Positions 2,600 through 13,214 of a stretch of DNA of 13,214 nt are shown here, in pieces. A program made the position numbers and the translations under genes. Source of the stretch: a virus (lineage: Duplodnaviria; Heunggongvirae; Uroviricota; Caudoviricetes); the IMG/VR virus record IMGVR_UViG_3300029064_000011, one strand, 5' to 3'. Numbering within the stretch: position 1 is the stretch's first letter; the number at the start of each line of letters is the position of its first letter. A model generated the notes under the pieces. The model saw only the letters and a program-made list of their open reading frames with translations, was not told the DNA's origin and made no database searches.

Positions 2600-3142
2600 T
2601 TACTCGCCTTTCTTCTGTAGCAACTTTTCCGGTACGTTTCCGGTTGTTTCTTTCAAGTAATCAGCCAGTATCTGTGGGAGGTTGTCGGCAACTCTGGCAC
2701 TGGCATTACAGGCTTTAACCACTTCCCTTTTAAGCCTGTCCAGCATGGCGGGGGTAATCTGTGGGAAGCTCCTTTGCATAGTAAGCGGGAGGCTGTCCAT
2801 GATTGATGAAATCTGACTCGCCAGCTTTGAAAGCGCGTACAGGCAAAACTCAGTATCAATCACGTCACCGCGATCGCGATCGTTTTTAAGTTCCTGCGCC
2901 TCTGCCTGTGCTGTCAGTAATCTGATCCTGACTCGTAAAAGTTCATCATCGTCAATCTCGCCTTTGTCGTTTATAAGCTGGCTAATTGCATTGTTAACCC
3001 TATTTTCTATCACGCTGGCAACATCATAAAACGCCTCACGGCCTTTACGCTCAACGGGAGTTACTCCCCACTTGTCGAACGCTGTCGCACTTACACGGCA
3101 GCTTTTCGCCATGTTTTTTTTGTTCATCAGATGAGATTTCAT
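2600..3142 (-). CDS. terS: Terminase small subunit, lambda Nu1-like, 180 aa
   Basis: Same length class as Nu1 (181 aa). Central and C-terminal segments (LTAQAEAQELKNDRD..., FCLYALSKLASQISSIMDSLPLTMQRSFP, LKREVVKACN) align with the Nu1 segments LTRAQADAQELKNARD, FCTFVLSRIAGEIASILDGLPLSVQRRFP, LKRDIIKAMN from memory. The N-terminal HTH region is more divergent. ATG at 3140-3142. Confidence 0.88.
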   Translation of the reverse strand: MKSHLMNKKNMAKSCRVSATAFDKWGVTPVERKGREAFYDVASVIENRVNNAISQLINDKGEIDDDELLRVRIRLLTAQAEAQELKNDRDRGDVIDTEFCLYALSKLASQISSIMDSLPLTMQRSFPQITPAMLDRLKREVVKACNASARVADNLPQILADYLKETTGNVPEKLLQKKGE

Positions 3143-3143
3143 T

Positions 3144-3181
3144 AATACACCAACTTAATTACTGCTTCAGGTTGGTGTATT
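3144..3181. promoter_or_regulatory. Inverted repeat AATACACCAAC(N16)GTTGGTGTATT directly upstream of the terS start
   Basis: Perfect 11-bp arms at 3144-3154 and 3171-3181. In the minus-strand mRNA the proximal arm covers the SD-like GGTG just before the ATG. Could be a protein binding site or a translational hairpin. Confidence 0.4.
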
Positions 3182-3253
3182 GCTTGCATCTTTCCCTTTT
3201 CATTCATAAAGATAGATCAAACAACAAAACCACCACCACCACCCTGAAAAGGC

Positions 3254-3317
3254 TCATAAATAGCGAAAATCCGCGAGGTCGCCGCCCCGTAACGGGTCCA
3301 TATGCCGGAAAGGACCC
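3254..3317 (-). other. Lambda-type cos site, copy B (cosQ-like plus cosN, short divergent cosB), minus orientation, directly upstream of terS
   Basis: Minus strand reads tacgggtcctttccggcatatggacccgttacggggcggcgacctcgcggattttcgctatttatga. The ACGGGTCCTTTCCGG and GGGCGGCGACCTCGCGG blocks match lambda cosQ/cosN as I remember them. The 12-mer occupies 3276-3287 on the + strand as its reverse complement. Sequence diverges from lambda cosB after tatttatga. About 140 nt separate cosN from the terS ATG. Confidence 0.8.
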
Positions 3318-3319
3318 GT

Positions 3320-3343
3320 AAAAAAAGCCGGATTTCTCCGGCC
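3320..3343 (-). terminator. Rho-independent terminator after the 137-aa gene
   Basis: Minus strand GCCGGA-gaaa-TCCGGC hairpin (3327-3342) followed by a 7-U run (3320-3326). Confidence 0.55.
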
Positions 3344-3348
3344 TTGTC

Positions 3349-3762
3349 TCAGATGGTTTTCAGTATGCGCTCGATGTCGCCATCATCGCCCGGGTTTCTG
3401 CCGTCGTATGCCATGCCAGCTGAAACGGCTTGCGGGCTGTGCATGTCCATAAAGTTTTCAAAGGCTGCGGTAAGCTCCGGCGCAACCTTCTGGCGTTCCT
3501 GCTCTATGGTCATGCTAAGGATGCTTTTAGCCGTACCAACATCGATACAAGGCACGTTTGCCATTGCACGTAACAGCGGCTGATAGTCGTTATGCTCATG
3601 AAGCGCCATAATCGCATCAGCGCGCGGCTTGTCCTGCTCTTCCAGTTTGTTGAGTTGATATACGGCCTCGTAGGTTGATAAACCTCTGTCAGCCATTGCC
3701 CGCGCTTCGGCTTTAAATTTACTCGCCAGCGGTAGCGTCATGATGCTTTCATTCGTTGCCAT
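3349..3762 (-). CDS. Hypothetical head-module protein, 137 aa
   Basis: ORF with AGGGGGAA SD 3-4 nt upstream of ATG at 3762. Sits between the decoration-protein gene and cos copy B. No family recognised. Confidence 0.6.
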   Translation of the reverse strand: MATNESIMTLPLASKFKAEARAMADRGLSTYEAVYQLNKLEEQDKPRADAIMALHEHNDYQPLLRAMANVPCIDVGTAKSILSMTIEQERQKVAPELTAAFENFMDMHSPQAVSAGMAYDGRNPGDDGDIERILKTI

Positions 3763-3774
3763 CGTTCCCCCTGC

Positions 3775-4110
3775 TTATCGGGCCAGCGGCTGAACGGATA
3801 CGCCAGAACCCGCAAAGGCGGCGCATTTTTTCGCATCGGTGTCGACGCTCTCGGGCCAGTTCACGGCGGCGATATTAAAGATCCCCGTCTTGTAGCACTG
3901 TGCTGATTTCTGCTTTGACGTGTCCACGGGGTACGAAGTCAGATAAACAGCCTTTCCGGACGCCTGACCATCCCACGGCTTAAACTCGCCATTGTCCGCC
4001 AGCATCAGCGGGGTAAATTCCTGAATGACGCCAGCATCAGCGGCAAAATGTACCAGCGTCGTGGATACCTGCTGACTGCCTGCAAATAACTCAATGTATG
4101 GAGTGTTCAT
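3775..4110 (-). CDS. Head decoration protein, lambda gpD-like, 111 aa
   Basis: Motifs TPLMLAD, WDG, YKTGIF, NWPE and KKCAAFAGSG align with lambda gpD (TPLMLD, WDG, YKSGTF, WPE, KKRTAFAG) from memory. Similar length to gpD (110 aa). GGGGGA SD 5 nt upstream of the ATG. Confidence 0.8.
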   Translation of the reverse strand: MNTPYIELFAGSQQVSTTLVHFAADAGVIQEFTPLMLADNGEFKPWDGQASGKAVYLTSYPVDTSKQKSAQCYKTGIFNIAAVNWPESVDTDAKKCAAFAGSGVSVQPLAR

Positions 4111-4121
4111 AGAATCCCCCG

Positions 4122-5177
4122 TTAACCAATTTTGACGGTAACAAATTTGCGAATGTCTGCCGGCACCGGCTGCGGTGCGCTGTGCGTCTGCACGTACTCA
4201 ATCGCCGGATCGCCGTCCTCAATCCAGTTTTTCGGGTAGTACATGTTTTGCGTTGCGCCCGTTCTTACCGCTTCCTGATCCATAATCGCACCATAAGCAA
4301 CCAGCCCTTTATTGTTGGTGTTGCCCAAGACCAGCAAATCAGGCTCAAGGAAATGTTTTTCGGTGCCGTCGCTGTCGGCGTATTTGCCGGAATAGACGAT
4401 AAGGGCAATATCGCCCAGATAGCCTTTAAAGCTCACCACTTCGCCCAGGTTTTTACAGGCCAGTTCTGCGGCGGATTCTGAACCACGGGAAAGATCGTAC
4501 AGTTCGCGGAATTTTTTAAAGCTGCGTAACGTGCGCCATACCTCAGCGCCCATAATCATGACGTTTGCGGGGCAATTGCCCTGATCCGCATAAAGCTCGA
4601 TATCATAGATTGGATCGTGGGTTTCTTTGTCCTGCTCGGACCATTTACGGCCTTTGGCCTGCTCTATGATGTTGTTTTCCGGCATCTTCCAGTCGATTTC
4701 ATAGCGTTCTATGCCTTCGCCCTCAATGATGTTTTTTCCGGTCGTTACCGCATTTACCGCCAGCCATTCAACACGCGCTTTAATAGCGTTTACCTGGCGG
4801 CGCATGTTGCCAGTAATCAGGCGCATACGGCGATAGGTTGGGTCGTTAAGCTGTGCCGGATCTTCTCCAGCCATGCGCATGATGGTTTTTGTTGGATCGA
4901 TTTCGTGCTTTGGCTTCATGTAGCCAGGTTTAATCGTGCTGGTTTCGTACCCTTTATCGCGCTGTACCTGGCTACCAACCATAGGCGAGCAAAACGCTGA
5001 CATAGTGACTTCTTCGGTGTCCAGGTTATCCAGCATGATGTTTTGGGTGTTGAATGTCGCTACTTTCGGGAAAAACAGCGTGGTAAACAGCGGACTAAAT
5101 TTAAATTCCGCAATATCCCCGCGATTCAGGTACGCAAAAAGCTGGTGAGTGTTAAGTGCCGTTGCTTTGCCTGCCAT
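4122..5177 (-). CDS. Major capsid protein, lambda gpE-like, 351 aa
   Basis: Collinear similarity to lambda gpE over the full length as I remember it: FKFSPLF vs FKFDPLF, KPGYMKPKHEIDP vs TPGYVKPKHEVNP, DPTYRRMRLI vs DPAYRRRRII, WRTLRSFK vs WALFRSFK, SFKGYLGDIALIVYSGKY vs SYKGMYGDVAIVVYSGQY, YPKNWIEDGDPA vs YPKNWVTTGDPA. GGGGGTGA SD. Start overlaps the stop of the upstream 68-aa gene (TAATG). Confidence 0.92.
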   Translation of the reverse strand: MAGKATALNTHQLFAYLNRGDIAEFKFSPLFTTLFFPKVATFNTQNIMLDNLDTEEVTMSAFCSPMVGSQVQRDKGYETSTIKPGYMKPKHEIDPTKTIMRMAGEDPAQLNDPTYRRMRLITGNMRRQVNAIKARVEWLAVNAVTTGKNIIEGEGIERYEIDWKMPENNIIEQAKGRKWSEQDKETHDPIYDIELYADQGNCPANVMIMGAEVWRTLRSFKKFRELYDLSRGSESAAELACKNLGEVVSFKGYLGDIALIVYSGKYADSDGTEKHFLEPDLLVLGNTNNKGLVAYGAIMDQEAVRTGATQNMYYPKNWIEDGDPAIEYVQTHSAPQPVPADIRKFVTVKIG

Positions 5178-6496: not shown

Positions 6497-6543
6497 ATTT
6501 ATTTTTACCCCCTCGTTTAAAAAGTTTTGAGTTGTGCCTCCCC

Positions 6544-6772
6544 TTGTCTACCTTATCTACCTTAGTGGCCCTCATACCAGTAATGGCGCGGCTTTCAGCG
6601 GGGTAGAGTGCTTTTATCCACTATCTACCCCGTGTCTACCTCCCTGTCTGATTCAGGTAAAATCAGGTAGAGAGGGTAGATAGTGGGTAGACAGTAAAAA
6701 AAGGTTATCTACCTAACTTAATGCACTGAATTAAATGTATTTTTCTTTACTCAGGTAGACAGGGTAGACAGC
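6544..6772. repeat. Iteron array, putative replication origin
   Basis: At least 11 copies of GGTAGA(C/T)AG or its complement in both orientations (for example 6545-6552, 6554-6561, 6622-6629, 6632-6640, 6666-6672, 6674-6681, 6685-6693, 6705-6712, 6754-6762, 6764-6772), with an AT-rich stretch at 6693-6750. Lies immediately 3' of the primase-helicase gene. Confidence 0.7.
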
Positions 6773-6784
6773 AATTACAAAAAA

Positions 6785-8539
6785 TTATAAAAACGCGTCG
6801 CACTCGTCTGTTGTTATTGCGTTAGTCTGCGTTACTCCCTTAACTTTCCGCGTAATATATTCATGTCCGTAAACTTTCGCGGCTGGCTTCATAGCCTTGC
6901 CAAAGTCATTTACGTTTAGCGGTTTGCTCCTGCCTGCGTACGCCATAAACGCCAGATAGACGCGGTAAAGGCTGTTTCTGGTCGTGTACTTCACTGAATC
7001 GCCACCGCCGCCCATCATCAGGCCGCGTGCTTCCTCCAGAAAATTCAGGAACTGGCAAAACTCAATAACCGGATCCGTCTGTTGCTTTATTGCCAGAGCT
7101 TCATCACCGTCACGCTGTTCCAGTAGTAAAGCCCGTGCCTTCTCAGGGTCGGTAAAGTTCGCCAGCAATCGGCGGATAATGACAGGGATTTCAGCCGCGA
7201 TCTTTTCCGGTAGCTCCCTGTCTTTTTCGGCCTCACTGACGATATTGTCGAAACGGAAAATCACGCGACGACGTGCCACACCTCCGGCCCGTTCGGTGAA
7301 TATCATCGGGTTATTGTTGGTCGCCAGCACCACCGCCCTGATTACCGCCGTGAAACGCTTTTCGTATTTCGGGTTAATTTCCACGGGGTCACCGCCCGTG
7401 ATTTTCTTGATGCCCGTTCCTTCGCCTGTATATTTCGGCTGGTCAGCCAGGACGATAAGACGACTCCCGACAACCTGCGCACGTCCACCAGCATCATCAA
7501 GCGATGTCATTTCAGCGCTTACCGTGTTCTGTTTCCCTGCCAGAAGGCTAGCTATGTGTGTGAATGTACTTTTACCGCTCCCGCCGTCTCCGGTGGCCTC
7601 AATAAACATCTGCCAGTCGTACCGGTTCGCCATAATCATGTACAGCGCGGCACATATACGCATCATCTTGCGCGGGTCTTTTCCGGCTGCGTGCTCAAGC
7701 CATTTATGAAAGTTTGGCGCGTTATCGCGGATGTTCTCCCCTGGTGCTGGTGGCGTGTACTCAATGCCGTTGTGCGTGGTGATCCAGTTCTCCGGCGTGT
7801 GCGGGGAAAATTCCCCCGTTTTCAGGTCAAGCGCACCATTGGCGAACGGCAACAAATCGCCGGACGGCTCGCCCATTGGTTCGGCAATAACTTTTAACGC
7901 TTCCACGGCGTTATTGATTACGCGCTTGCTGAAAGTGGCCCTGTGCTCTGAATAGATCGCCACCATTTCGCGGCTAAGTTCCATTGTGCTGACCGGACAC
8001 CATACCCCGCCGCGCCATACGTGAACGATTTCACTTTCAGGATGTACGCAAACGCCATCAAAGCGATCGGCAAGCAGCTGCGCGCGCTCACTGTCCGCCA
8101 TCTGCGAAAGTTGCGCCTTTTGCTTTACCGGAAGCTCAATGACCAGACCATCAGAAAGATTCTGGCGCTCACGGGCCAGATATTCGCGCCAGTTCTCCAC
8201 CTTCTGACCGTGCATACCATCAGGGTAAAAATTTGCATCCTGTACGCCTGCCGCCGCCAGCTTCTGACCAATCGCCTTTATCATTACTGGCGCAAGATAT
8301 CCGGCCCTGAATATGCGCACGGATTTTCTGCCTTCCGGCACAATTTGCAGCTTATCCAGTTCGGATAACTGCTGCTCCCCAAGCCACACAGGAGTCTCAT
8401 TATCTCCGGCCATACGCGCGTCATGTTCCTGCCATTGTTTTGCGTGTGACCAGGCATCACTACCCGCAAAAATAATGACTTCTGTTTCTTTGTGTTTTAT
8501 GCCGCGTGACTGCTGTTTTACGTTCGGTGCCAGTTTCAT
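6785..8539 (-). CDS. Primase-helicase replication initiator (P4-family phage/plasmid primase C-terminal domain with D5-like NTPase), 584 aa
   Basis: Walker A TGDGGSGKST and Walker B-like RLIVLADQ in the C-terminal half. Domain order and size are typical of satellite pri-rep proteins. Origin iterons directly downstream. Start overlaps the upstream 99-aa ORF. Confidence 0.88.
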   Translation of the reverse strand: MKLAPNVKQQSRGIKHKETEVIIFAGSDAWSHAKQWQEHDARMAGDNETPVWLGEQQLSELDKLQIVPEGRKSVRIFRAGYLAPVMIKAIGQKLAAAGVQDANFYPDGMHGQKVENWREYLARERQNLSDGLVIELPVKQKAQLSQMADSERAQLLADRFDGVCVHPESEIVHVWRGGVWCPVSTMELSREMVAIYSEHRATFSKRVINNAVEALKVIAEPMGEPSGDLLPFANGALDLKTGEFSPHTPENWITTHNGIEYTPPAPGENIRDNAPNFHKWLEHAAGKDPRKMMRICAALYMIMANRYDWQMFIEATGDGGSGKSTFTHIASLLAGKQNTVSAEMTSLDDAGGRAQVVGSRLIVLADQPKYTGEGTGIKKITGGDPVEINPKYEKRFTAVIRAVVLATNNNPMIFTERAGGVARRRVIFRFDNIVSEAEKDRELPEKIAAEIPVIIRRLLANFTDPEKARALLLEQRDGDEALAIKQQTDPVIEFCQFLNFLEEARGLMMGGGGDSVKYTTRNSLYRVYLAFMAYAGRSKPLNVNDFGKAMKPAAKVYGHEYITRKVKGVTQTNAITTDECDAFL

Positions 8540-9875: not shown

Positions 9876-10095
9876 GTACCCCTCCGCATTTTTTTTCGTT
9901 AGAAATAAGCGTTCTTCTTTCCTGTTCATCGCTCAGGAATACGCAGACCTCACCGCTAAGGCGTTTAAGTAAGCCGATGATTGCCCCTGATTCGCTGTCG
10001 GTCATCATGCCAGGGTAATCCTCTGCCAGTGCGCAAATAACTTCGATTTGGTGGGCGCGTTCTGCTGCCTGTTGTAGTGTGATTTCCTGGCTCAT
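9865..10095 (-). CDS. Hypothetical protein, 76 aa
   Basis: ORF with GGGGGTAGG SD. Its ATG overlaps the stop of the upstream 66-codon reading frame (ATGA). Confidence 0.45.
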   Translation of the reverse strand: MSQEITLQQAAERAHQIEVICALAEDYPGMMTDSESGAIIGLLKRLSGEVCVFLSDEQERRTLISNEKKCGGVHVQ

Positions 10096-10292
10096 AAGCC
10101 TACCCCCTGACGAATACGGGCAGCAAATACCATCACGCAGCCAGCCGGAGATTGCTGGCGTGCTTCCTGTTCGCTGGTGGCCTCAATGGTAATCACGCGC
10201 GGTTGTGCCGTGCTCAGGGCGATAAAACGCCAGATGTATTTATTCAGGTTGTGCGAGTCCCGCCCTTGCGGGTGTGTGGTATGATTTCTCAT
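10092..10292 (-). CDS. Hypothetical protein, 66 aa, candidate first gene of the leftward operon
   Basis: ATG at 10290-10292 preceded by GAGGTAG. Stop overlaps the start of the 76-aa gene. This is the C-terminal in-frame part of the 428-codon ORF 10092..11378. Starts about 95 bp from the operator cluster. Confidence 0.4.
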   Translation of the reverse strand: MRNHTTHPQGRDSHNLNKYIWRFIALSTAQPRVITIEATSEQEARQQSPAGCVMVFAARIRQGVGL

Positions 10293-11378
10293 AGCTACCT
10301 CGATACTTTCGCTATCGTTGGTGGTTAGAAGCCCGGTTAGTGTTAGCGCACTGCCGGGTTTCGTCGTTTCTGCACCTTGCGCCAACAAGGTGTTGAACAC
10401 CAATTTAAACCCAGGTGTTAAACACGTCAAGTGTTGAACACTTATTTTTTTTCCTGCATACTGCATTTGTTTTTTATGAGGGGTACACCACATGGCGACA
10501 AAAGCGGTAAACGCAAAATCACAAACCGTTGCGGCAAGGGTTCCGCATGAAGTTATGAACAATGTTGAGGCGGTAAAAATGCCTGGCGAAAGTACGGGGC
10601 AATTTGTTACTGCGGCATTAAAACGAGAAGTTGAATATCGCCAGCGGCGCAAGGCCAAAGAACCAGAGTAATCACCATCAGCGCCGTGGTGTAAGGTATT
10701 ACGGCGCATTGCTATGCAGGACAACACAATGACCGATAAAGAATTGACCAAAACATTATCACCGGCACGGAAAAGACGGCGCAGAAAGATAGAGCATGAA
10801 TCAGAAAGATTCGCGCCATGTGCTTTTGCCCTTGAGCAATTCCTTAAAGAGTACAGGGAAAAGCGCTCATTGCAGGTATGGCAACGAACTGAACCAGACT
10901 GATTGCATTGCCCACCAGCCGCAAATGTGGCATTGTTGGCAATGCTCATGCGTTGGGGATAACGTGTAGCTTGTGTCGAGGGGCCACCGTAGCGGGTGGC
11001 CTTTGTTTTGCCCGTTATTCGGCAATTGTGGCGCTTCTCCACATGGTTGATATAATCCCACTGCTCAGATTCATTTTTTGCGCAGTAGGTTAATTGTTCA
11101 CAAAGGCGCTCCGGCAACGGGGCGCTTTTTGTTTTTATTAGTTTGTAGAAACCTGACTCAGAGATAATGCTCATATTCTGATTGCCGTCAGGGGTGTAAG
11201 TTAAATTTACTCCCTTTTTATCATCAAACATCTGCAACGCTCTGGCGTTAACAATATTGGTTTCACTCCCGCCAGTAAGGCCGGAAATAACCGGAATAAT
11301 TTCGGCAAAATTTTGCAGATTCTGTTTTTCAGGACGAACGAAGCCCCGCCCTTGTTCGGGAGAATATCCAGTATTCAT
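10092..11378 (-). CDS. 428-codon ORF, probably not one real gene; N-terminal roughly 115 codons resemble a BRO-N/antirepressor-like domain, the middle overlaps the + strand RHH cassette
   Basis: N-terminal part contains ISESGFYKLIKTKSAP, reminiscent of the BRO-N motif I-E-G-LY-LI-S-P. The rest has skewed Cys/Ser/Thr-rich composition and runs antisense through operators, the RHH gene and two + strand terminators. Weak SD at the 11378 ATG. Confidence 0.25.
   Translation of the reverse strand: MNTGYSPEQGRGFVRPEKQNLQNFAEIIPVISGLTGGSETNIVNARALQMFDDKKGVNLTYTPDGNQNMSIISESGFYKLIKTKSAPLPERLCEQLTYCAKNESEQWDYINHVEKRHNCRITGKTKATRYGGPSTQATRYPQRMSIANNATFAAGGQCNQSGSVRCHTCNERFSLYSLRNCSRAKAHGANLSDSCSIFLRRLFRAGDNVLVNSLSVIVLSCIAMRRNTLHHGADGDYSGSLALRRWRYSTSRFNAAVTNCPVLSPGIFTASTLFITSCGTLAATVCDFAFTAFVAMWCTPHKKQMQYAGKKISVQHLTCLTPGFKLVFNTLLAQGAETTKPGSALTLTGLLTTNDSESIEVAMRNHTTHPQGRDSHNLNKYIWRFIALSTAQPRVITIEATSEQEARQQSPAGCVMVFAARIRQGVGL
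10388..10442. promoter_or_regulatory. Three palindromic operator-like sites in a divergent promoter region
   Basis: GGTGTT-G-AACACC (10388-10400), GTGTT-A-AACAC (10414-10424) and AAGTGTT-G-AACACTT (10428-10442). The third overlaps a candidate rightward promoter: -35 TTGAAC (10433-10438), 17-nt spacer, -10 CATACT (10456-10461). Confidence 0.6.
10491..10670 (+). CDS. Ribbon-helix-helix (Arc/CopG-like) DNA-binding protein, 59 aa
   Basis: Not in the ORF track because it is under 60 aa; translated by hand as MATKAVNAKSQTVAARVPHEVMNNVEAVKMPGESTGQFVTAALKREVEYRQRRKAKEPE. The N-terminal strand-like RVPHEV followed by two helices is the classic RHH pattern. GAGGGG SD. The operator cluster lies immediately upstream. 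Confidence 0.6.
10714..10902 (+). CDS. Small, very basic hypothetical protein (58-62 aa), second gene of the + strand cassette
   Basis: ORF track entry 10714..10902. An AGGA SD favours the second ATG at 10729 (MTDKELTK...). Contains an RKRRRRK tract. Followed by an intrinsic terminator. Confidence 0.4.
   Translation: MQDNTMTDKELTKTLSPARKRRRRKIEHESERFAPCAFALEQFLKEYREKRSLQVWQRTEPD
10982..11009 (+). terminator. Rho-independent terminator of the + strand RHH cassette
   Basis: GGCCACC-gtagcg-GGTGGCC hairpin (10982-11001) followed by TTTGTTTT. Confidence 0.55.
11106..11136 (+). terminator. Second + strand rho-independent terminator
   Basis: GCGCTCCG-GCAA-CGGGGCGC hairpin (8 bp including one G-U pair, GNRA-like tetraloop) followed by TTTTTGTTTTT. 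Confidence 0.55.
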
Positions 11379-11430: not shown

Positions 11431-11619
11431 TTAGTGAACTGCCTCGCAGCTGTCCTTCCATGCCAGAACTTCGGATAAAGACCAGCCAACGGAACGACCG
11501 CCCAGCTTACGCCGTGATGGGAATTGTCCGGCTTTTTCCAGGCGGTACCGACATGAGCGGCTCAGGCCTGTAAGTTGCTGACATTCTTTTTCACGTATAA
11601 AGCGATCTGTGCTTAACAC
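11431..11619 (-). CDS. alpA: AlpA-family transcriptional regulator (excisionase-like HTH), 62 aa, GTG start
   Basis: Pattern LTGLSRSCRYRLEKAGQFPSRRKLGGRSVGWSLSEVLAW fits the Phage_AlpA family (TG-SR-T-Y, FP-P-LG-RSVGW, E-W). AAGGGGGAA SD 4-5 nt upstream of the GTG. Positioned next to the integrase as in PICIs and P4-like islands. Confidence 0.8.
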   Translation of the reverse strand: MLSTDRFIREKECQQLTGLSRSCRYRLEKAGQFPSRRKLGGRSVGWSLSEVLAWKDSCEAVH

Positions 11620-11984: not shown

Positions 11985-13214
11985 TTATATTTCTCTGGCT
12001 ATTGGCAATGTGGTTACGTTTTCATGTGTTCCCGCCAGTATCCCTAACCGCTCCGTCCACATATCCAGCGCGTCACGTTTCGCATCCAGATAACGGGAAT
12101 GGTTATAGACTCGTTGCATCCCTGGCATCTGATGACCTGTAAGCTGCTCCACGACGTGAGGATCCACGCCTAAATCGTTCAGCATCGTTGTAAAGGTGCG
12201 CCGGATGTCATGCAGTGACCAGTGAGGGTGTTTTAGCCTCCTGTGCGCTAATCTGCCGTACTGCGACACGCTTGTTTCCTGTTTCACTTCCCCCAGCAAT
12301 AAGCCCGTGTGCCTGTTCTGCTCCACCAGCTGCGTGACGAACGGCAGTATTGCTTCCGGTATGGGCCGGAATATTGCCACCTTCGTTTTGCTGTGTTCTT
12401 TCGGCACGGTCCAGAGCATTTCGGTAAAATCCCACTCGCTGATCTCCGATAACCTCAGTTCTACCGTCCGGCATCCGAAAACAATCAGGAGGCGGATTAG
12501 TGCGACGTAGTAAGGGGAAAATATTTTTTTGTCCAGTGCCTGCAATAATTCGCCAAGTTCTTTGGTGCTTAAGACACGCTCGCTTATATCCGGTTTTTTC
12601 CCAACGTCCGCCACACTCATATCATCAAGAACGTTGCTGATTGCATAGCGCCGCCTCCGGCAGAACTTAAGCGCCTGTTTGCACGTCTGTAGCAAGAATC
12701 CGGCAGTAACAGGCGTTCGCTTTGCCACCTGGTCAAAACAGGCCAGCCAGTGCCGTAGCTCGCATTTATCCAGCGGCATAGCACCAATGTGCTGTATTAC
12801 GTGATTATTAAGGCGCTTTTTCAGGGCGGCATAATCCACGCGGTTTTCCTTTACGTAAGACTCAAGCCAGTAGGTAAGCGCATCGCCAACCGTTACGGGC
12901 TTTAACGCTTTCTGTACGGTGTAATTCATCTCATGACGTGGATTTTTCCCCTCAGCAAGCCAAGCGCGACACTGTGCCGCTTTTTCCCTGGCAGCTTTCA
13001 GACTCAGATCAGGATAATTTCCCAGCTTAATCCGTTCCGGTCGTGCTCCCCTTCCCGTTCCGGCCCTGTAGGTGAAATACCAGGTTAAAAGGCCGCTGGT
13101 TGAATGCCTGACGCTCAGGTTTCCACCGTCATTAAGAAAGGCTGTTTTTTGGGCGGGTGTGCCGTTGATTTTCCTCAGCTGTGTATCGCTCAGTTTGTTA
13201 AGTGCTCTGCTCAT
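11985..13214 (-). CDS. int: Tyrosine recombinase, P4-type integrase, 409 aa; start codon at the last window base
   Basis: N-terminal arm-binding domain pattern (LSDTQLRK, NDGGNLSV, WYFTYR, LGNYPDLSLKAAREK) typical of P4-like integrases. C-terminal catalytic motifs HDIRRTF and RVYNHSRY. The N-terminal pattern suggests the ATG at 13212-13214 is the true start. Confidence 0.93.
   Translation of the reverse strand: MSRALNKLSDTQLRKINGTPAQKTAFLNDGGNLSVRHSTSGLLTWYFTYRAGTGRGARPERIKLGNYPDLSLKAAREKAAQCRAWLAEGKNPRHEMNYTVQKALKPVTVGDALTYWLESYVKENRVDYAALKKRLNNHVIQHIGAMPLDKCELRHWLACFDQVAKRTPVTAGFLLQTCKQALKFCRRRRYAISNVLDDMSVADVGKKPDISERVLSTKELGELLQALDKKIFSPYYVALIRLLIVFGCRTVELRLSEISEWDFTEMLWTVPKEHSKTKVAIFRPIPEAILPFVTQLVEQNRHTGLLLGEVKQETSVSQYGRLAHRRLKHPHWSLHDIRRTFTTMLNDLGVDPHVVEQLTGHQMPGMQRVYNHSRYLDAKRDALDMWTERLGILAGTHENVTTLPIAREI

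What the first reader, a model, noticed from the sequence alone, without database searches (positions are those of the whole stretch)
10491..11136. Convergent RHH plus small basic protein cassette with its own promoter and two tandem terminators: candidate toxin-antitoxin or defence cargo
This is the only + strand unit in the island, with an RHH gene, a very basic 58-62 aa ORF, a possible 61-aa hydrophobic ORF (10908..11093) and two strong intrinsic terminators. RHH proteins are often antitoxins, and satellites are known carriers of anti-phage systems. The second protein is too short for a typical RelE/ParE toxin, so this may be something different or simply a regulator pair.
Basis: inference. 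Interest (0 to 1): 0.5.

Follow-up and report, generated by a model that had tools for sequence, protein, structure and literature searches.

The report
Satellite repressor operon nested antisense
This two-gene unit in an E. coli phage-satellite island most likely encodes the island's own repressor, with private DNA sites, plus a tiny conserved partner, written backwards inside a reading frame kept open on the other strand; it is not a toxin-antitoxin pair.

Summary
The observation largely holds. 10492-10671 encodes a YlcI/YnfO-family ribbon-helix-helix (RHH) protein. 10729-10902 encodes a real 57-aa basic protein (ORF2). Two intrinsic terminators follow (10980-11003, 11102-11129). The third 'hydrophobic ORF' is not a gene.

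The toxin-antitoxin/defence reading is not supported. In about 100 related loci the RHH gene is hypervariable: 25 proteins, three RHH types. Each allele has its own 9-13-bp motif, repeated 2-4 times at fixed positions around a divergent promoter pair. The same recognition strand goes with the same motif even in Salmonella and Klebsiella. This is an immunity-type repressor/operator switch on the early (P4 PLE-like) promoter of an AlpA-type satellite. No master repressor is known for that class.

ORF2 is a conserved, Escherichia-restricted passenger. Its slot is empty or differently filled in other genera, and its function is unknown.

Unexpectedly, the whole cassette lies antisense inside a 428-codon ORF (10092-11378) that ends in the Kil/Icd-like gene. 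That frame is stop-free in all 86 distinct loci (chance about 0.002 or less per allele). This matches P4's eta/kil translation-dependent read-through. A SymR-like antisense sRNA candidate lies next to it.

The parts
10390..10441 (.). Operator cluster. Three 11-bp palindromes: O1 10390-10400 GTGTTGAACAC, O2 10415-10425 GTGTTAAACAC, O3 10431-10441 GTGTTGAACAC.
   Evidence: 3 exact matches in the window against 0.00 expected in 200 shuffles. Every RHH allele has its own repeated motif at the same positions, about -103, -77 and -63/-30 from the RHH ATG, and the cross-matrix is near-diagonal. The same motif goes with the same beta-strand in Salmonella and Klebsiella.
10402..10430 (-). Leftward early promoter P_L, the P4 PLE analogue: -35 TTGACG 10430..10425, 17 nt, -10 TAAATT 10407..10402. 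O2 fills the spacer, O1 covers the start region and O3 abuts the -35.
   Evidence: Promoter scan gives 9/12. The -35 (GTCAA on the + strand) is conserved in all alleles while the flanking repeats change. Function is inferred.
10434..10462 (+). Rightward promoter P_R of the cassette: -35 TTGAAC (inside O3), 17 nt, -10 CATACT.
   Evidence: Read from the sequence. It scores 8/12, so the scan does not list it. The -10 is conserved as TGTGTATACTG in most alleles and is followed there by an allele-specific repeat. Inferred.
10492..10671 (+). RHH repressor gene (YlcI/YnfO family, 59 aa).
10681..10707 (+). Conserved hairpin in the fixed 57-nt RHH-ORF2 spacer (11-bp stem, loop UAAGG, no U-tail).
   Evidence: Fold of -17.7 kcal/mol. 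The spacer length is identical in all loci, whatever the RHH allele. Role unknown.
10729..10902 (+). ORF2: a 57-aa basic protein with an Arg-rich disordered N-terminus (SPARKRRRRK) and one amphipathic helix. Invariant core ERFAPCxFxLExxLK. An alternative start lies at 10714.
   Evidence: phrog_21027 at 1.6e-15. 36 clusters, all E. coli/Shigella. Only 9 representatives (one a spurious repeat match) among 1.84 billion proteins. pN/pS 0.34, the lowest of six frames. The + frame BLOSUM score exceeds the antisense-frame score in every pair. AF2 gives a helix at 29-54, with pLDDT about 90 over residues 31-40.
10980..11012 (+). Terminator T1: GGGGCCACC-GUAGCG-GGUGGCCUU followed by UGUUUUG.
   Evidence: It recurs in related loci with compensatory stem variants.
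11102..11139 (+). Terminator T2: 12-bp stem followed by UGUUUUUAUU.
   Evidence: (z -5.0).
10092..11378 (-). Eta-like long ORF of 428 codons. The N-terminus is an AntA/Bro-N remnant (about 11100-11378). The middle is antisense of T2, T1, ORF2, the spacer, the RHH gene and the operators. The C-terminus is the Kil/Icd-like gene (ATG at 10292..10290, stop at 10092).
   Evidence: There are 0 stops in this frame against 25 and 27 in the other two minus frames. The frame is open in all 86 distinct loci, with a chance of about 0.002 or less per allele. The C-termini of P4 Eta and of this ORF both match phrog_1743.
11431..11619 (-). alpA (P4 vis analogue), upstream of the eta-like ORF.
   Evidence: PF05930 at 3e-18. 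Annotated as such.
10277..10372 (+). Candidate cis-antisense sRNA. It has an extended -10 (TGgTATGAT, 10277-10285) and a transcript of about 10293-10365 with two hairpins and a U-rich tail. It is complementary to the Shine-Dalgarno and 5' UTR of the Kil/Icd-like mRNA.
   Evidence: Sub-threshold Rfam symR match over the full model: 33.3 bits against a gathering score of 61, E 0.004 whole-window and 1.6e-4 locally. MFE is -35.1 (z -5.2) on the + strand against -20.5 (z -2.2) on the minus strand. Across 18 variants there are 3 pairs with compensatory changes and many G-U pairs that only work on the + strand.

Best explanation
The cassette is the maintenance ('immunity') switch of an AlpA-type phage satellite (Gram-negative PICI / P4-like island). 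It is not cargo.

1. The YlcI/YnfO-family RHH protein, made from its own promoter P_R, binds the three GTGTTRAACAC palindromes. These sit in the spacer, at the start site and next to the -35 of the leftward early promoter P_L, and they overlap the -35 of P_R.
2. Binding keeps the Kil/Icd-like to primase operon off in the resting island and autoregulates the repressor.
3. Repressor and operators diversify together, so different islands are hetero-immune.
4. ORF2 is co-transcribed from the same promoter. It is a conserved accessory protein of unknown biochemistry (basic tail plus one helix).
5. T1 and T2 stop the + transcript before it runs antisense into the ant remnant, alpA and int.
6. The whole operon is written antisense inside an eta-like ORF that starts just after alpA and ends with the Kil/Icd-like gene.
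7. When a helper phage switches on alpA, transcription from the alpA promoter reads leftward across the cassette. Translation of the open frame shields that RNA from Rho-dependent termination, as in phage P4's eta/kil. Convergent transcription would at the same time interfere with P_R.

Shown here: the RHH fold and family; allele-specific repeat covariation; fixed synteny; conserved terminators; the selectively maintained open antisense frame; shared PHROG membership between its C-terminus and that of P4 Eta/Kil.

Inferred: DNA binding; repression of P_L; autoregulation; translation-dependent anti-termination; promoter interference; any role of ORF2.
For: RHH identity:
- NF041551 at 59.7 bits.
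- P22 Arc is the third-best PDB sequence hit, in register over the whole domain, though weak at E 0.18.

Operators:
- 3 exact palindromes against 0 expected.
- They straddle the -35/-10 of the scanned leftward promoter.

Covariation:
- 25 distinct RHH proteins occur in 81 loci upstream of a nearly invariant ORF2.
- Sequence variation concentrates in the beta-strand (residues 11-15) that reads DNA in RHH proteins.
- In 16 allele groups, each allele's motif occurs 2-4 times in its own intergenic region and 0 times in nearly all others. It is shared only between alleles with the same or near-identical beta-strand.
- Salmonella and Klebsiella alleles with KSQT(V/I)AARVPH keep the same operator family (GGTGTTCAACACC, GTGTTAAACAC/GTGTTGAACAC, GTGTTGAACAC) in otherwise diverged DNA.
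- Two islands in one genome share an identical ORF2 but have different RHH alleles and operators.

Core-module status:
- The position between alpA and the replication operon is the same in islands with different integrases, replicases (D5_N primase, AAA_25, DUF927) and first genes (Icd-like or Phage_ASH).
- Matches are present in 1731 of 5426 complete E. coli genomes.

Nested eta-like ORF:
- It is open in 86 of 86 distinct loci, up to 2.4 kb across a tandem duplicated cassette.
- Shuffling gives P about 0.002 or less per allele, and 0.006 or less when only the non-coding parts are permuted.
- In a locus with an intact antA, the ORF's ATG overlaps the antA stop codon.
- The P4 Eta C-terminus and this ORF's C-terminus both hit phrog_1743.

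Literature:
- PMC10111431 describes the P4 eta/kil logic and the 'Bro zone' of Gram-negative PICIs.
- PMC6092414 states that a global repressor of Gram-negative PICIs is unclear and that AlpA is an activator.
Against: - No binding or expression data exist. Every functional step is inferred from sequence.
- P_R scores only 8/12 and was not called by the scan. In many alleles its -35 is poor.
- P4 itself uses an RNA (CI), not a protein, for immunity, and no C4/isrK match is present here. The analogy with P4 is therefore architectural, and BLASTP similarity of Kil to the Icd-like part is weak (E 0.66 pairwise).
- In about a quarter of loci the open frame stops before the Icd-like gene: 26 nt upstream of its start in the O157 type, further upstream in others.
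- ORF2's coding signal is only moderately better than that of the interlocked antisense frame (pN/pS 0.34 against 0.45), and its function is unexplained.
Confidence: 0.68

Rival explanations
1. Type II toxin-antitoxin module. The RHH protein is an autoregulating antitoxin and ORF2 a small basic toxin that stabilises the island or aborts phage infection.
For: - The gene order is RHH first, small gene second, with palindromic operators at its own promoter.
- The closest structural matches of the RHH model include antitoxin DNA-binding domains: CopA_SO, TacA2, ParD2 and Rv0298.
- The neighbouring sRNA candidate weakly resembles SymR, an antitoxin RNA.
Against: - The same ORF2 is paired with 25 RHH proteins of three unrelated types. 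One is a 43-aa Arc-like protein with no C-terminal extension that could neutralise a toxin.
- Three contigs carry a frameshifted RHH with an intact ORF2.
- The RHH occurs alone in Salmonella islands and with an unrelated 84-aa gene in Klebsiella.
- There is a 57-nt spacer with a hairpin instead of coupled genes.
- ORF2 has no toxin-family or PADLOC match. It is predicted as a disordered tail plus a single helix.
Confidence: 0.05
2. The RHH is the island repressor, but ORF2 is accessory cargo. On this reading it is a 'moron' expressed with the repressor in the resting state (like lambda rexAB with cI) that excludes phages or rival satellites, rather than part of the switch.
For: - The slot after the RHH gene is variable between genera: ORF2 in Escherichia/Shigella only, an unrelated 84-aa gene in Klebsiella, empty in Salmonella.
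- A recombination boundary lies right after the ORF2 stop in many genomes (query positions 1-621).
Against: - There is no match to PADLOC or to any characterised family.
- At 57 aa with a single helix it is small for a stand-alone defence effector.
- Within E. coli it is found in every locus examined, with a fixed spacer and at least 91% identity across islands that differ in almost everything else. That pattern fits a core function better than cargo.
Confidence: 0.2
3. Only the minus-strand long ORF (a Bro-N/Eta-like protein) is real. The + strand RHH and ORF2 would then be annotation artefacts of an antisense frame.
For: - PGAP and other annotators often call long minus-strand genes across this region: a BRO-N pseudogene, a 247-aa hypothetical protein in O157:H7, 285-aa and 474-aa calls, and a 324-aa call in LR881103.1.
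- The minus frame is open everywhere.
- Its pN/pS of 0.45 is not far from the + frame's 0.34 over ORF2.
Against: - The RHH family has a curated model and members outside this context, such as DLP12 ylcI.
- The model has an RHH fold.
- Operator and beta-strand covariation only makes sense for a + strand DNA-binding protein.
- The middle of the minus-strand product is unrelated between alleles and has a composition unlike normal proteins.
- The + frame of ORF2 scores higher than the minus frame in every pairwise comparison, for example 132 against 74 for the most distant homologue.
Confidence: 0.03

Closest known systems
Phage satellite P4 left-operon control region (vis, PLL/PLE, nested kil/eta genes, CI RNA immunity)
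   Same: - An AlpA/Vis gene is followed by a long ORF whose C-terminal part is a small killing/division-inhibitor gene, the first gene of the primase operon.
- An internal early promoter lies inside that ORF.
- Both C-termini match phrog_1743.
- The long frame is maintained open, as expected if its translation prevents termination. The P4 logic is summarised in PMC10111431; the original is Forti et al. 1999 J Bacteriol 181:5225, known to me but not held in the library.
   Different: - P4 has no RHH-like ORF on the opposite strand inside eta. It relies on the CI RNA and seqA/seqC.
- Here no C4/isrK RNA is detected.
- Instead, a protein repressor operon with operators, plus a candidate cis-antisense sRNA, is nested antisense in the ORF.
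- The eta-like ORF here is 428 codons, and up to about 800 elsewhere.
P22 immI region (Arc and Mnt RHH repressors, sar antisense RNA, ant antirepressor)
   Same: - Small RHH repressors bind short symmetric operators at a divergent or overlapping promoter pair.
- An antisense RNA covers the ribosome-binding site of the controlled gene.
- Antirepressor (Ant/Bro-N) genes lie next door.
- Arc is the best in-register PDB sequence hit of the RHH profile, and two alternative alleles match the 'Arc-like repressor' phrog_228.
   Different: - The controlled operon here is a satellite's replication operon, not ant.
- The repressor gene is antisense-nested in a translated ORF.
- The repressor is hypervariable, with co-varying operators.
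- The comparison with P22 rests on my own knowledge of that system.
SaPI Stl / Gram-positive PICI Rpr master repressors
   Same: A satellite-encoded repressor is transcribed divergently from the excision/replication operon and keeps the island quiescent (PMC6092414).
   Different: - Stl proteins are larger HTH proteins that are inactivated by helper-phage proteins.
- Here the candidate is a 59-aa RHH protein, and induction is expected to bypass it from the alpA promoter.
- For Gram-negative PICIs the literature states that a global repressor is unclear.
Type II toxin-antitoxin operons with RHH antitoxins (CopA_SO, ParD, TacA)
   Same: The DNA-binding domain has an RHH fold, and the unit is an autoregulated two-gene operon with the RHH gene first.
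   Different: There is no recognisable toxin and no neutralisation domain. The partner is dispensable or replaceable between genera, and the RHH is swapped freely in front of the same ORF2.
YlcI (DLP12) / YnfO (Qin) small prophage proteins of E. coli K-12
   Same: They belong to the same NCBIfam family, NF041551. In DLP12, ylcI also lies on the strand opposite to the surrounding late genes.
   Different: The K-12 proteins are uncharacterised, and I found no functional study. Their context is a lambdoid late region between the lysis genes and nohD, not a satellite control region.

Membership tests
Ribbon-helix-helix (CopG/Arc/MetJ) DNA-binding superfamily | A beta-strand followed by two helices, with a G-x-S/T/N turn between the helices | tested here: met
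Ribbon-helix-helix (CopG/Arc/MetJ) DNA-binding superfamily | Binds repeated short symmetric or tandem operator sites as a dimer or higher oligomer | not testable with these tools
   Indirect evidence only: three palindromes against 0 expected, and allele-specific motif covariation.
YlcI/YnfO family (NCBIfam NF041551) | Whole-protein score above the curated cut-off | tested here: met
   59.7 bits against a cut-off of 30, covering profile positions 1-42 of 42.
Type II toxin-antitoxin system | The second gene belongs to a recognised toxin family or is demonstrably toxic | tested here: not met
   There is no Pfam, NCBIfam or PADLOC match. The prediction is a disordered tail plus one helix. Toxicity itself was not testable.
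Type II toxin-antitoxin system | The antitoxin carries a toxin-neutralising region, and the pair co-occurs obligatorily | tested here: not met
   A 43-aa Arc-like allele has no extension. ORF2 is intact next to a frameshifted RHH in three contigs. The RHH is alone in Salmonella.
P4-type immunity/late read-through architecture (vis - eta/kil) | A Kil-like first gene of the primase operon forms the C-terminal part of a longer ORF that begins upstream of the early promoter, just after the AlpA/Vis gene | tested here: met
   ORF 10092-11378 ends with the Icd-like domain (NF033153 at 65.7 bits). It starts 52 nt after alpA. The P4 Eta C-terminus and this C-terminus both match phrog_1743. The frame is kept open in 86 of 86 loci.
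P4-type immunity/late read-through architecture (vis - eta/kil) | CI-type immunity RNA and seqA/seqC target sites (Rfam C4, isrK) | tested here: not met
   There is no C4 or isrK match, even at E up to 10 in a local search.
P4-type immunity/late read-through architecture (vis - eta/kil) | Translation of the long ORF prevents Rho-dependent termination | not testable with these tools
   The only evidence is the statistical maintenance of the open frame.
Known anti-phage defence systems (PADLOC-DB 2.0) | A match of any cassette protein to a defence-system model | tested here: not met
   No match at E up to 0.1 for the RHH, ORF2, ORF3 or the long minus-strand ORF.
SymR antisense RNA (Rfam RF01809) | Score at or above the gathering threshold | tested here: not met
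   33.3 bits against 61. It resembles SymR in layout (a cis-antisense RNA over a ribosome-binding site, with two hairpins and a terminator) but is not a member by Rfam's criterion.

The most novel reading that the evidence does not exclude
The RHH protein is the long-missing master repressor of Gram-negative PICI/P4-like satellites. It would come in many hetero-immune specificities. Its operon is obligatorily encoded antisense inside a 'translated spacer' ORF whose only job is to carry ribosomes from alpA to the replication operon. The two strands then form a convergent-transcription toggle. In the resting state the + strand makes the repressor, ORF2 and an antisense sRNA. In the induced state minus-strand read-through silences them. 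ORF2, with its lambda-N-like arginine-rich tail, would be an RNA-binding component acting on the conserved spacer hairpin or the leader/sRNA pair.
Probability: 0.25. Interest if true: 0.8.

Novelty: new variant of a known kind. Interest (0 to 1): 0.6.

Why it matters
- **An open question becomes testable.** Gram-negative PICIs and P4-like satellites are in roughly a third of E. coli genomes; this region alone matches 1731 of 5426 complete genomes. Their induction is attributed to the activator AlpA, and the literature says a global repressor is unclear. A hypervariable RHH repressor with matching operators on the early promoter gives a concrete candidate for what keeps these islands silent. 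It also offers a reason why several can coexist in one cell (hetero-immunity).
- **An annotation problem.** A real two-gene operon is systematically hidden under, or confused with, a long antisense ORF. That ORF is itself under selection only to stay open. Annotators alternately call a BRO-N pseudogene, an over-long Icd-like protein or a hypothetical protein there.
- **Sense/antisense constraints.** Repressor alleles must diversify without ever creating a stop codon on the other strand.
- **Practical use.** PICIs are being engineered as delivery vehicles, and knowing their off-switch matters for that work.

Tried and rejected
- **ORF2 homology.** tblastn against GenBank phage records found nothing. 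Pfam, NCBIfam and PADLOC gave no hit. An HMM search of 1.84 billion representatives found only nine proteins, one of them a spurious repeat protein. I ran no fold search on the ORF2 model because a single helix gives meaningless matches.
- **Literature.** Searches for YlcI/YnfO gave no functional study. One P4 search was too loose to be useful. Forti et al. 1999 is not held, so the eta/kil mechanism is cited through PMC10111431 and from my own knowledge. EcCIMP1's 'putative repressor' turned out to be a PerC-like protein, unrelated to this cassette.
- **EcCICFT073.** I tried to locate it by guessing coordinates in CFT073 and fetched its helper prophage instead. I did not pursue this.
- **Substitution analysis.** It cannot cleanly separate the ORF2 frame from the open antisense frame, because their third codon positions coincide. 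I relied instead on BLOSUM scores at larger divergence.
- **ORF3 (10908-11093).** Rejected as a gene.
- **Minus-strand-only reading.** I considered it and rejected it, as set out under rival explanations.
Full report
**Context**

The window holds the 3' end of phoQ (1-1461) and then an island of about 11 kb. All recognisable genes in the island are on the minus strand:
- integrase (11985-13214)
- alpA (11431-11619, PF05930 at 3e-18)
- an Icd-like gene
- several small ORFs and a DUF4222 gene
- a P4-family primase (6785-8539)
- an SSB
- a late zone with lambda-like major capsid, decoration, scaffold-like and small-terminase genes

This is the four-zone layout (Integration, Bro, Replication, Late) described for Gram-negative PICIs, including elements that carry their own lambda E-like capsid gene (PMC10111431). 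Near-identical islands lie between phoQ and roxA in other E. coli. DNA of the region under study matches 1731 of 5426 complete E. coli genomes.

**Checking the observation**

*ORF2.* The second ORF is real, but it probably starts at ATG 10729 (57 aa, pI 9.9) rather than 10714. The phrog_21027 match and all homologues begin there, and an AGGA Shine-Dalgarno sits in the five extra codons.

*Terminators.* Two + strand intrinsic terminators follow. T1 is 10980-11003 plus UGUUUUG. T2 is 11102-11129 plus a U-run, with z -5.0. Of 58 distinct related downstream regions, 56 carry at least one such terminator and many carry two. Stem changes between variants are compensatory.

It has a TTG start, no Shine-Dalgarno and no family hit. 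T1 lies inside it, and relatives differ by many non-conservative changes and have different ends.

- They bracket a leftward sigma-70-like promoter: TTGACG at 10430..10425, 17 nt, TAAATT at 10407..10402.
- O2 fills the spacer, O1 covers the start region and O3 abuts the -35.
- O3 also contains the -35 (TTGAAC) of a rightward promoter, with CATACT at 10457-10462. I read this promoter by eye; at 8/12 it falls below the scan's threshold.

**Comparative evidence on the RHH gene**

I collected about 100 related loci from IMG/VR, complete E. coli genomes and assemblies.
- In every locus with an ORF2 homologue, a + strand RHH gene ends exactly 57 nt upstream of the ORF2 start. The spacer contains a conserved hairpin.
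- ORF2 is at least 91% identical in the 80 IMG/VR loci. The RHH gene in front of it is hypervariable: 25 distinct proteins in 81 loci. These comprise about ten YlcI/YnfO alleles, in 59-aa and 101-106-aa forms, plus 43-aa and 57-aa proteins that match the 'Arc-like repressor' phrog_228.
- Variation among the YlcI alleles concentrates in residues 11-15 of the N-terminal strand (QTVAA, QALKA, KKLEA, QQLNA, QLTTV, KQISI and others). In RHH proteins this is the DNA-reading element.
- Each allele has its own 9-13-bp motif, repeated 2-4 times at the same positions on a conserved promoter scaffold. The scaffold consists of the leftward -35 GTCAA and the rightward -10 TGTGTATACTG.
- In a 16 x 16 table of allele motifs against intergenic regions the counts are near-diagonal. 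Off-diagonal matches are essentially confined to alleles with the same or near-identical strand.
- Salmonella and Klebsiella alleles with KSQT(V/I)AARVPH keep the window's operator family (GGTGTTCAACACC, GTGTTAAACAC/GTGTTGAACAC, GTGTTGAACAC) in otherwise diverged DNA.
- Two islands in one genome have identical ORF2 but different RHH alleles and operators.

This is the signature of an immunity-type repressor/operator pair that diversifies as a unit. The pair sits between alpA and the leftward replication operon in islands that differ in integrase, integration site, replicase (D5_N primase, AAA_25, DUF927) and first gene (Icd-like or Phage_ASH). It is therefore a core module, not cargo.

**ORF2**

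- The family is tiny. There are 36 clusters at 90% identity, all E. coli or Shigella, and nine representatives, one a spurious repeat match, among 1.84 billion proteins.
- The core ERFAPCxFxLExxLK is invariant, indels are in frame, and the C-terminal tail varies.
- AF2 predicts a disordered Arg-rich N-terminus (SPARKRRRRK) and one helix at 29-54, with pLDDT about 90 over residues 31-40.
- pN/pS is 0.34, the lowest of the six frames. The interlocked antisense frame reaches 0.45 because the third codon positions coincide.
- At larger divergence the + frame always scores better than the antisense frame, for example BLOSUM 132 against 74 for a 46%-identical homologue (26 of 57 residues). That homologue again sits 57 nt behind an RHH gene.
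- The slot is not universal. Salmonella islands have the RHH gene alone, and Klebsiella islands have an unrelated 84-aa gene overlapping the RHH stop.
- I therefore regard ORF2 as a conserved accessory of the repressor operon with unknown biochemistry.

**Why not a toxin-antitoxin or defence system**

- One and the same ORF2 is paired with three unrelated RHH types, including a 43-aa protein with no room for a neutralising tail.
- Three contigs carry a frameshifted RHH next to an intact ORF2.
- The RHH occurs without ORF2 in Salmonella.
- The genes are separated by a structured 57-nt spacer.
- No toxin or PADLOC model matches.

**The other strand**

A 428-codon minus-strand ORF (10092-11378) covers the whole cassette.
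- Its first 90 or so residues are a chimeric remnant of AntA/Bro-N antirepressor genes that are intact in other islands.
- Its last 66 or so residues are the Icd-like protein (NF033153).
- The middle is the antisense of T2, T1, ORF2, the spacer, the RHH gene and the operators. It looks nothing like a protein.
- PGAP variously calls parts of it a BRO-N pseudogene, an over-long Icd-like protein or a hypothetical protein. In a deposited 16.5-kb 'phage' genome, a 324-aa minus-strand gene is annotated over an unannotated RHH.

This open frame is not an accident.
- In all 86 distinct loci a stop-free minus frame of 627-2094 nt spans ORF2, the spacer and the RHH gene.
- In about 60 loci it runs in frame to the Icd-like stop. 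In the others it ends upstream of that gene: 26 nt before its start in the O157 type, further upstream in some.
- The window has 0 stops in this frame against 25 and 27 in the other two minus frames.
- Recoding the + genes synonymously and permuting the non-coding parts leaves the frame open in about 0.2% of trials or fewer, for each of 15 alleles with unrelated operator and RHH sequences.
- In two loci with a tandem, partly decayed second cassette, the frame stays open for 2.4 kb.
- Where antA is intact, the long ORF's ATG overlaps the antA stop codon.

This reproduces the phage P4 arrangement.
- In P4, kil is the first gene of the primase operon and is expressed from PLE. It forms the C-terminal part of eta, which starts upstream of PLE next to vis (an AlpA-family gene).
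- eta is translated only from the late promoter PLL, and its translation prevents Rho-dependent termination. PMC10111431 summarises this. The original is Forti et al. 1999, which I cite from my own knowledge because the paper is not held.
- The C-termini of P4 Eta and of the window's ORF both match phrog_1743, although direct BLASTP similarity is weak.
- P4 has no RHH-like ORF on the opposite strand and uses the CI RNA instead.
- Here no C4 or isrK RNA is found.

**Model**

| State | What happens (inferred) |
|---|---|
| Resting | P_R makes the RHH and ORF2. The RHH occupies O1-O3, shutting P_L (the PLE analogue) and limiting its own synthesis. T1 and T2 keep the + transcript out of alpA and int. 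|
| Induced | The helper phage turns on alpA (PMC6092414). Leftward transcription crosses the cassette and is protected by translation of the eta-like frame. It expresses the Kil/Icd-like to primase operon regardless of the repressor, and would interfere with P_R. |

Every step of this model is inferred. What is shown is fold, family, covariation, synteny, terminators and the maintained frame.

**A further layer**

Just left of the operators, a + strand element (10293-10365) has an extended -10 (TGgTATGAT, 10277-10285), two hairpins and a U-rich tail.
- It is exactly complementary to the Shine-Dalgarno and 5' UTR of the Icd-like mRNA.
- It gives a sub-threshold but full-length match to SymR (33 bits against 61).
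- It folds to -35.1 kcal/mol (z -5.2) on the + strand against -20.5 on the minus strand.
- Across 18 variants it keeps its pairs through three compensatory changes and many G-U pairs that only work on the + strand.
- It is a candidate cis-antisense sRNA, analogous to sar of P22.

**Verdict**

The toxin-antitoxin/defence interpretation is not supported, and the 'regulator' alternative is.
- The cassette is best described as a protein-based immunity switch of an AlpA-type satellite, nested antisense in an eta-like translated ORF. That makes it a new variant of the P4-type control region.
- Published work on Gram-negative PICIs that I could search does not describe it, and states that a global repressor is unclear.
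- ORF2's role is the main open point.

Noticed in passing
window 10277-10372 (+): Candidate cis-antisense sRNA over the Shine-Dalgarno and 5' UTR of the Icd/Kil-like gene. It has an extended -10, two hairpins and a U-tail. It gives a sub-threshold full-length SymR match (33 against 61 bits), z -5.2 on the + strand only, and compensatory and G-U pairs across 18 variants.
   Followed up: partly
window 11100-11378 (-): The N-terminus of the long ORF is a chimera. Residues 1-48 match the start of an intact AntA antirepressor in another island (L004). Residues about 49-90 match the middle of an intact Bro-N protein (L007). It is truncated exactly at the antisense of terminator T2.
   Followed up: partly
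window 10681-10707 (+): A conserved 11-bp-stem hairpin lies in the invariant 57-nt spacer between the RHH gene and ORF2. It has no U-tail, so it is not a terminator. It might be a processing site or a target of ORF2's Arg-rich tail.
   Followed up: no
window 6540-6775: A cluster of direct and inverted T(G/A)TCTACC iterons lies immediately downstream of the primase gene. This is probably the island's replication origin.
   Followed up: no
window 2600-5177 (-): The late zone encodes a lambda-like small terminase, a Nu3-like scaffold fragment, a D-like decoration protein and an E-like major capsid protein, but no portal, protease or large terminase. The satellite brings its own shell proteins, as the '11capE' helper-embedded PICIs do.
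   Followed up: partly
L103 3300-4400 and L104 3300-4630: A tandem duplication of the cassette. The first copy is a decayed RHH pseudogene plus an 81-aa ORF2 homologue. It is followed by an intact long-form RHH, which in L104 is followed by a second ORF2. The antisense frame stays open for about 2.4 kb across both copies.
   Followed up: partly
L021, L043, L053 (about 240 nt upstream of ORF2): The same frameshift inactivates the RHH gene in three contigs while ORF2 stays intact. In L021 and L053 the antisense open frame is broken at the same place, which suggests decaying islands.
   Followed up: no
L110 (LR881103.1) 3634-4608: A deposited 16.5-kb 'induced prophage' genome is evidently a packaged satellite. 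It annotates a 324-aa minus-strand hypothetical gene over an unannotated YlcI-like RHH ORF. The same annotation problem recurs in RefSeq (247-aa, 285-aa and 474-aa calls).
   Followed up: no
L109 (E. coli K-12 DLP12) 3752-3946: The family's namesake, ylcI, also lies on the strand opposite to the surrounding late genes, between the lysis cassette and nohD. RHH genes of this family may often be embedded against the direction of a long transcription unit.
   Followed up: no
proteins P0114, P0017, P0018, P0035: ORF2 variants. In the most distant homologue the arginine run has moved from the N-terminal to the C-terminal end. Three variants have a +1-frame tail caused by a 1-nt change in an A-run, which would also shift the antisense frame.
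   Followed up: no
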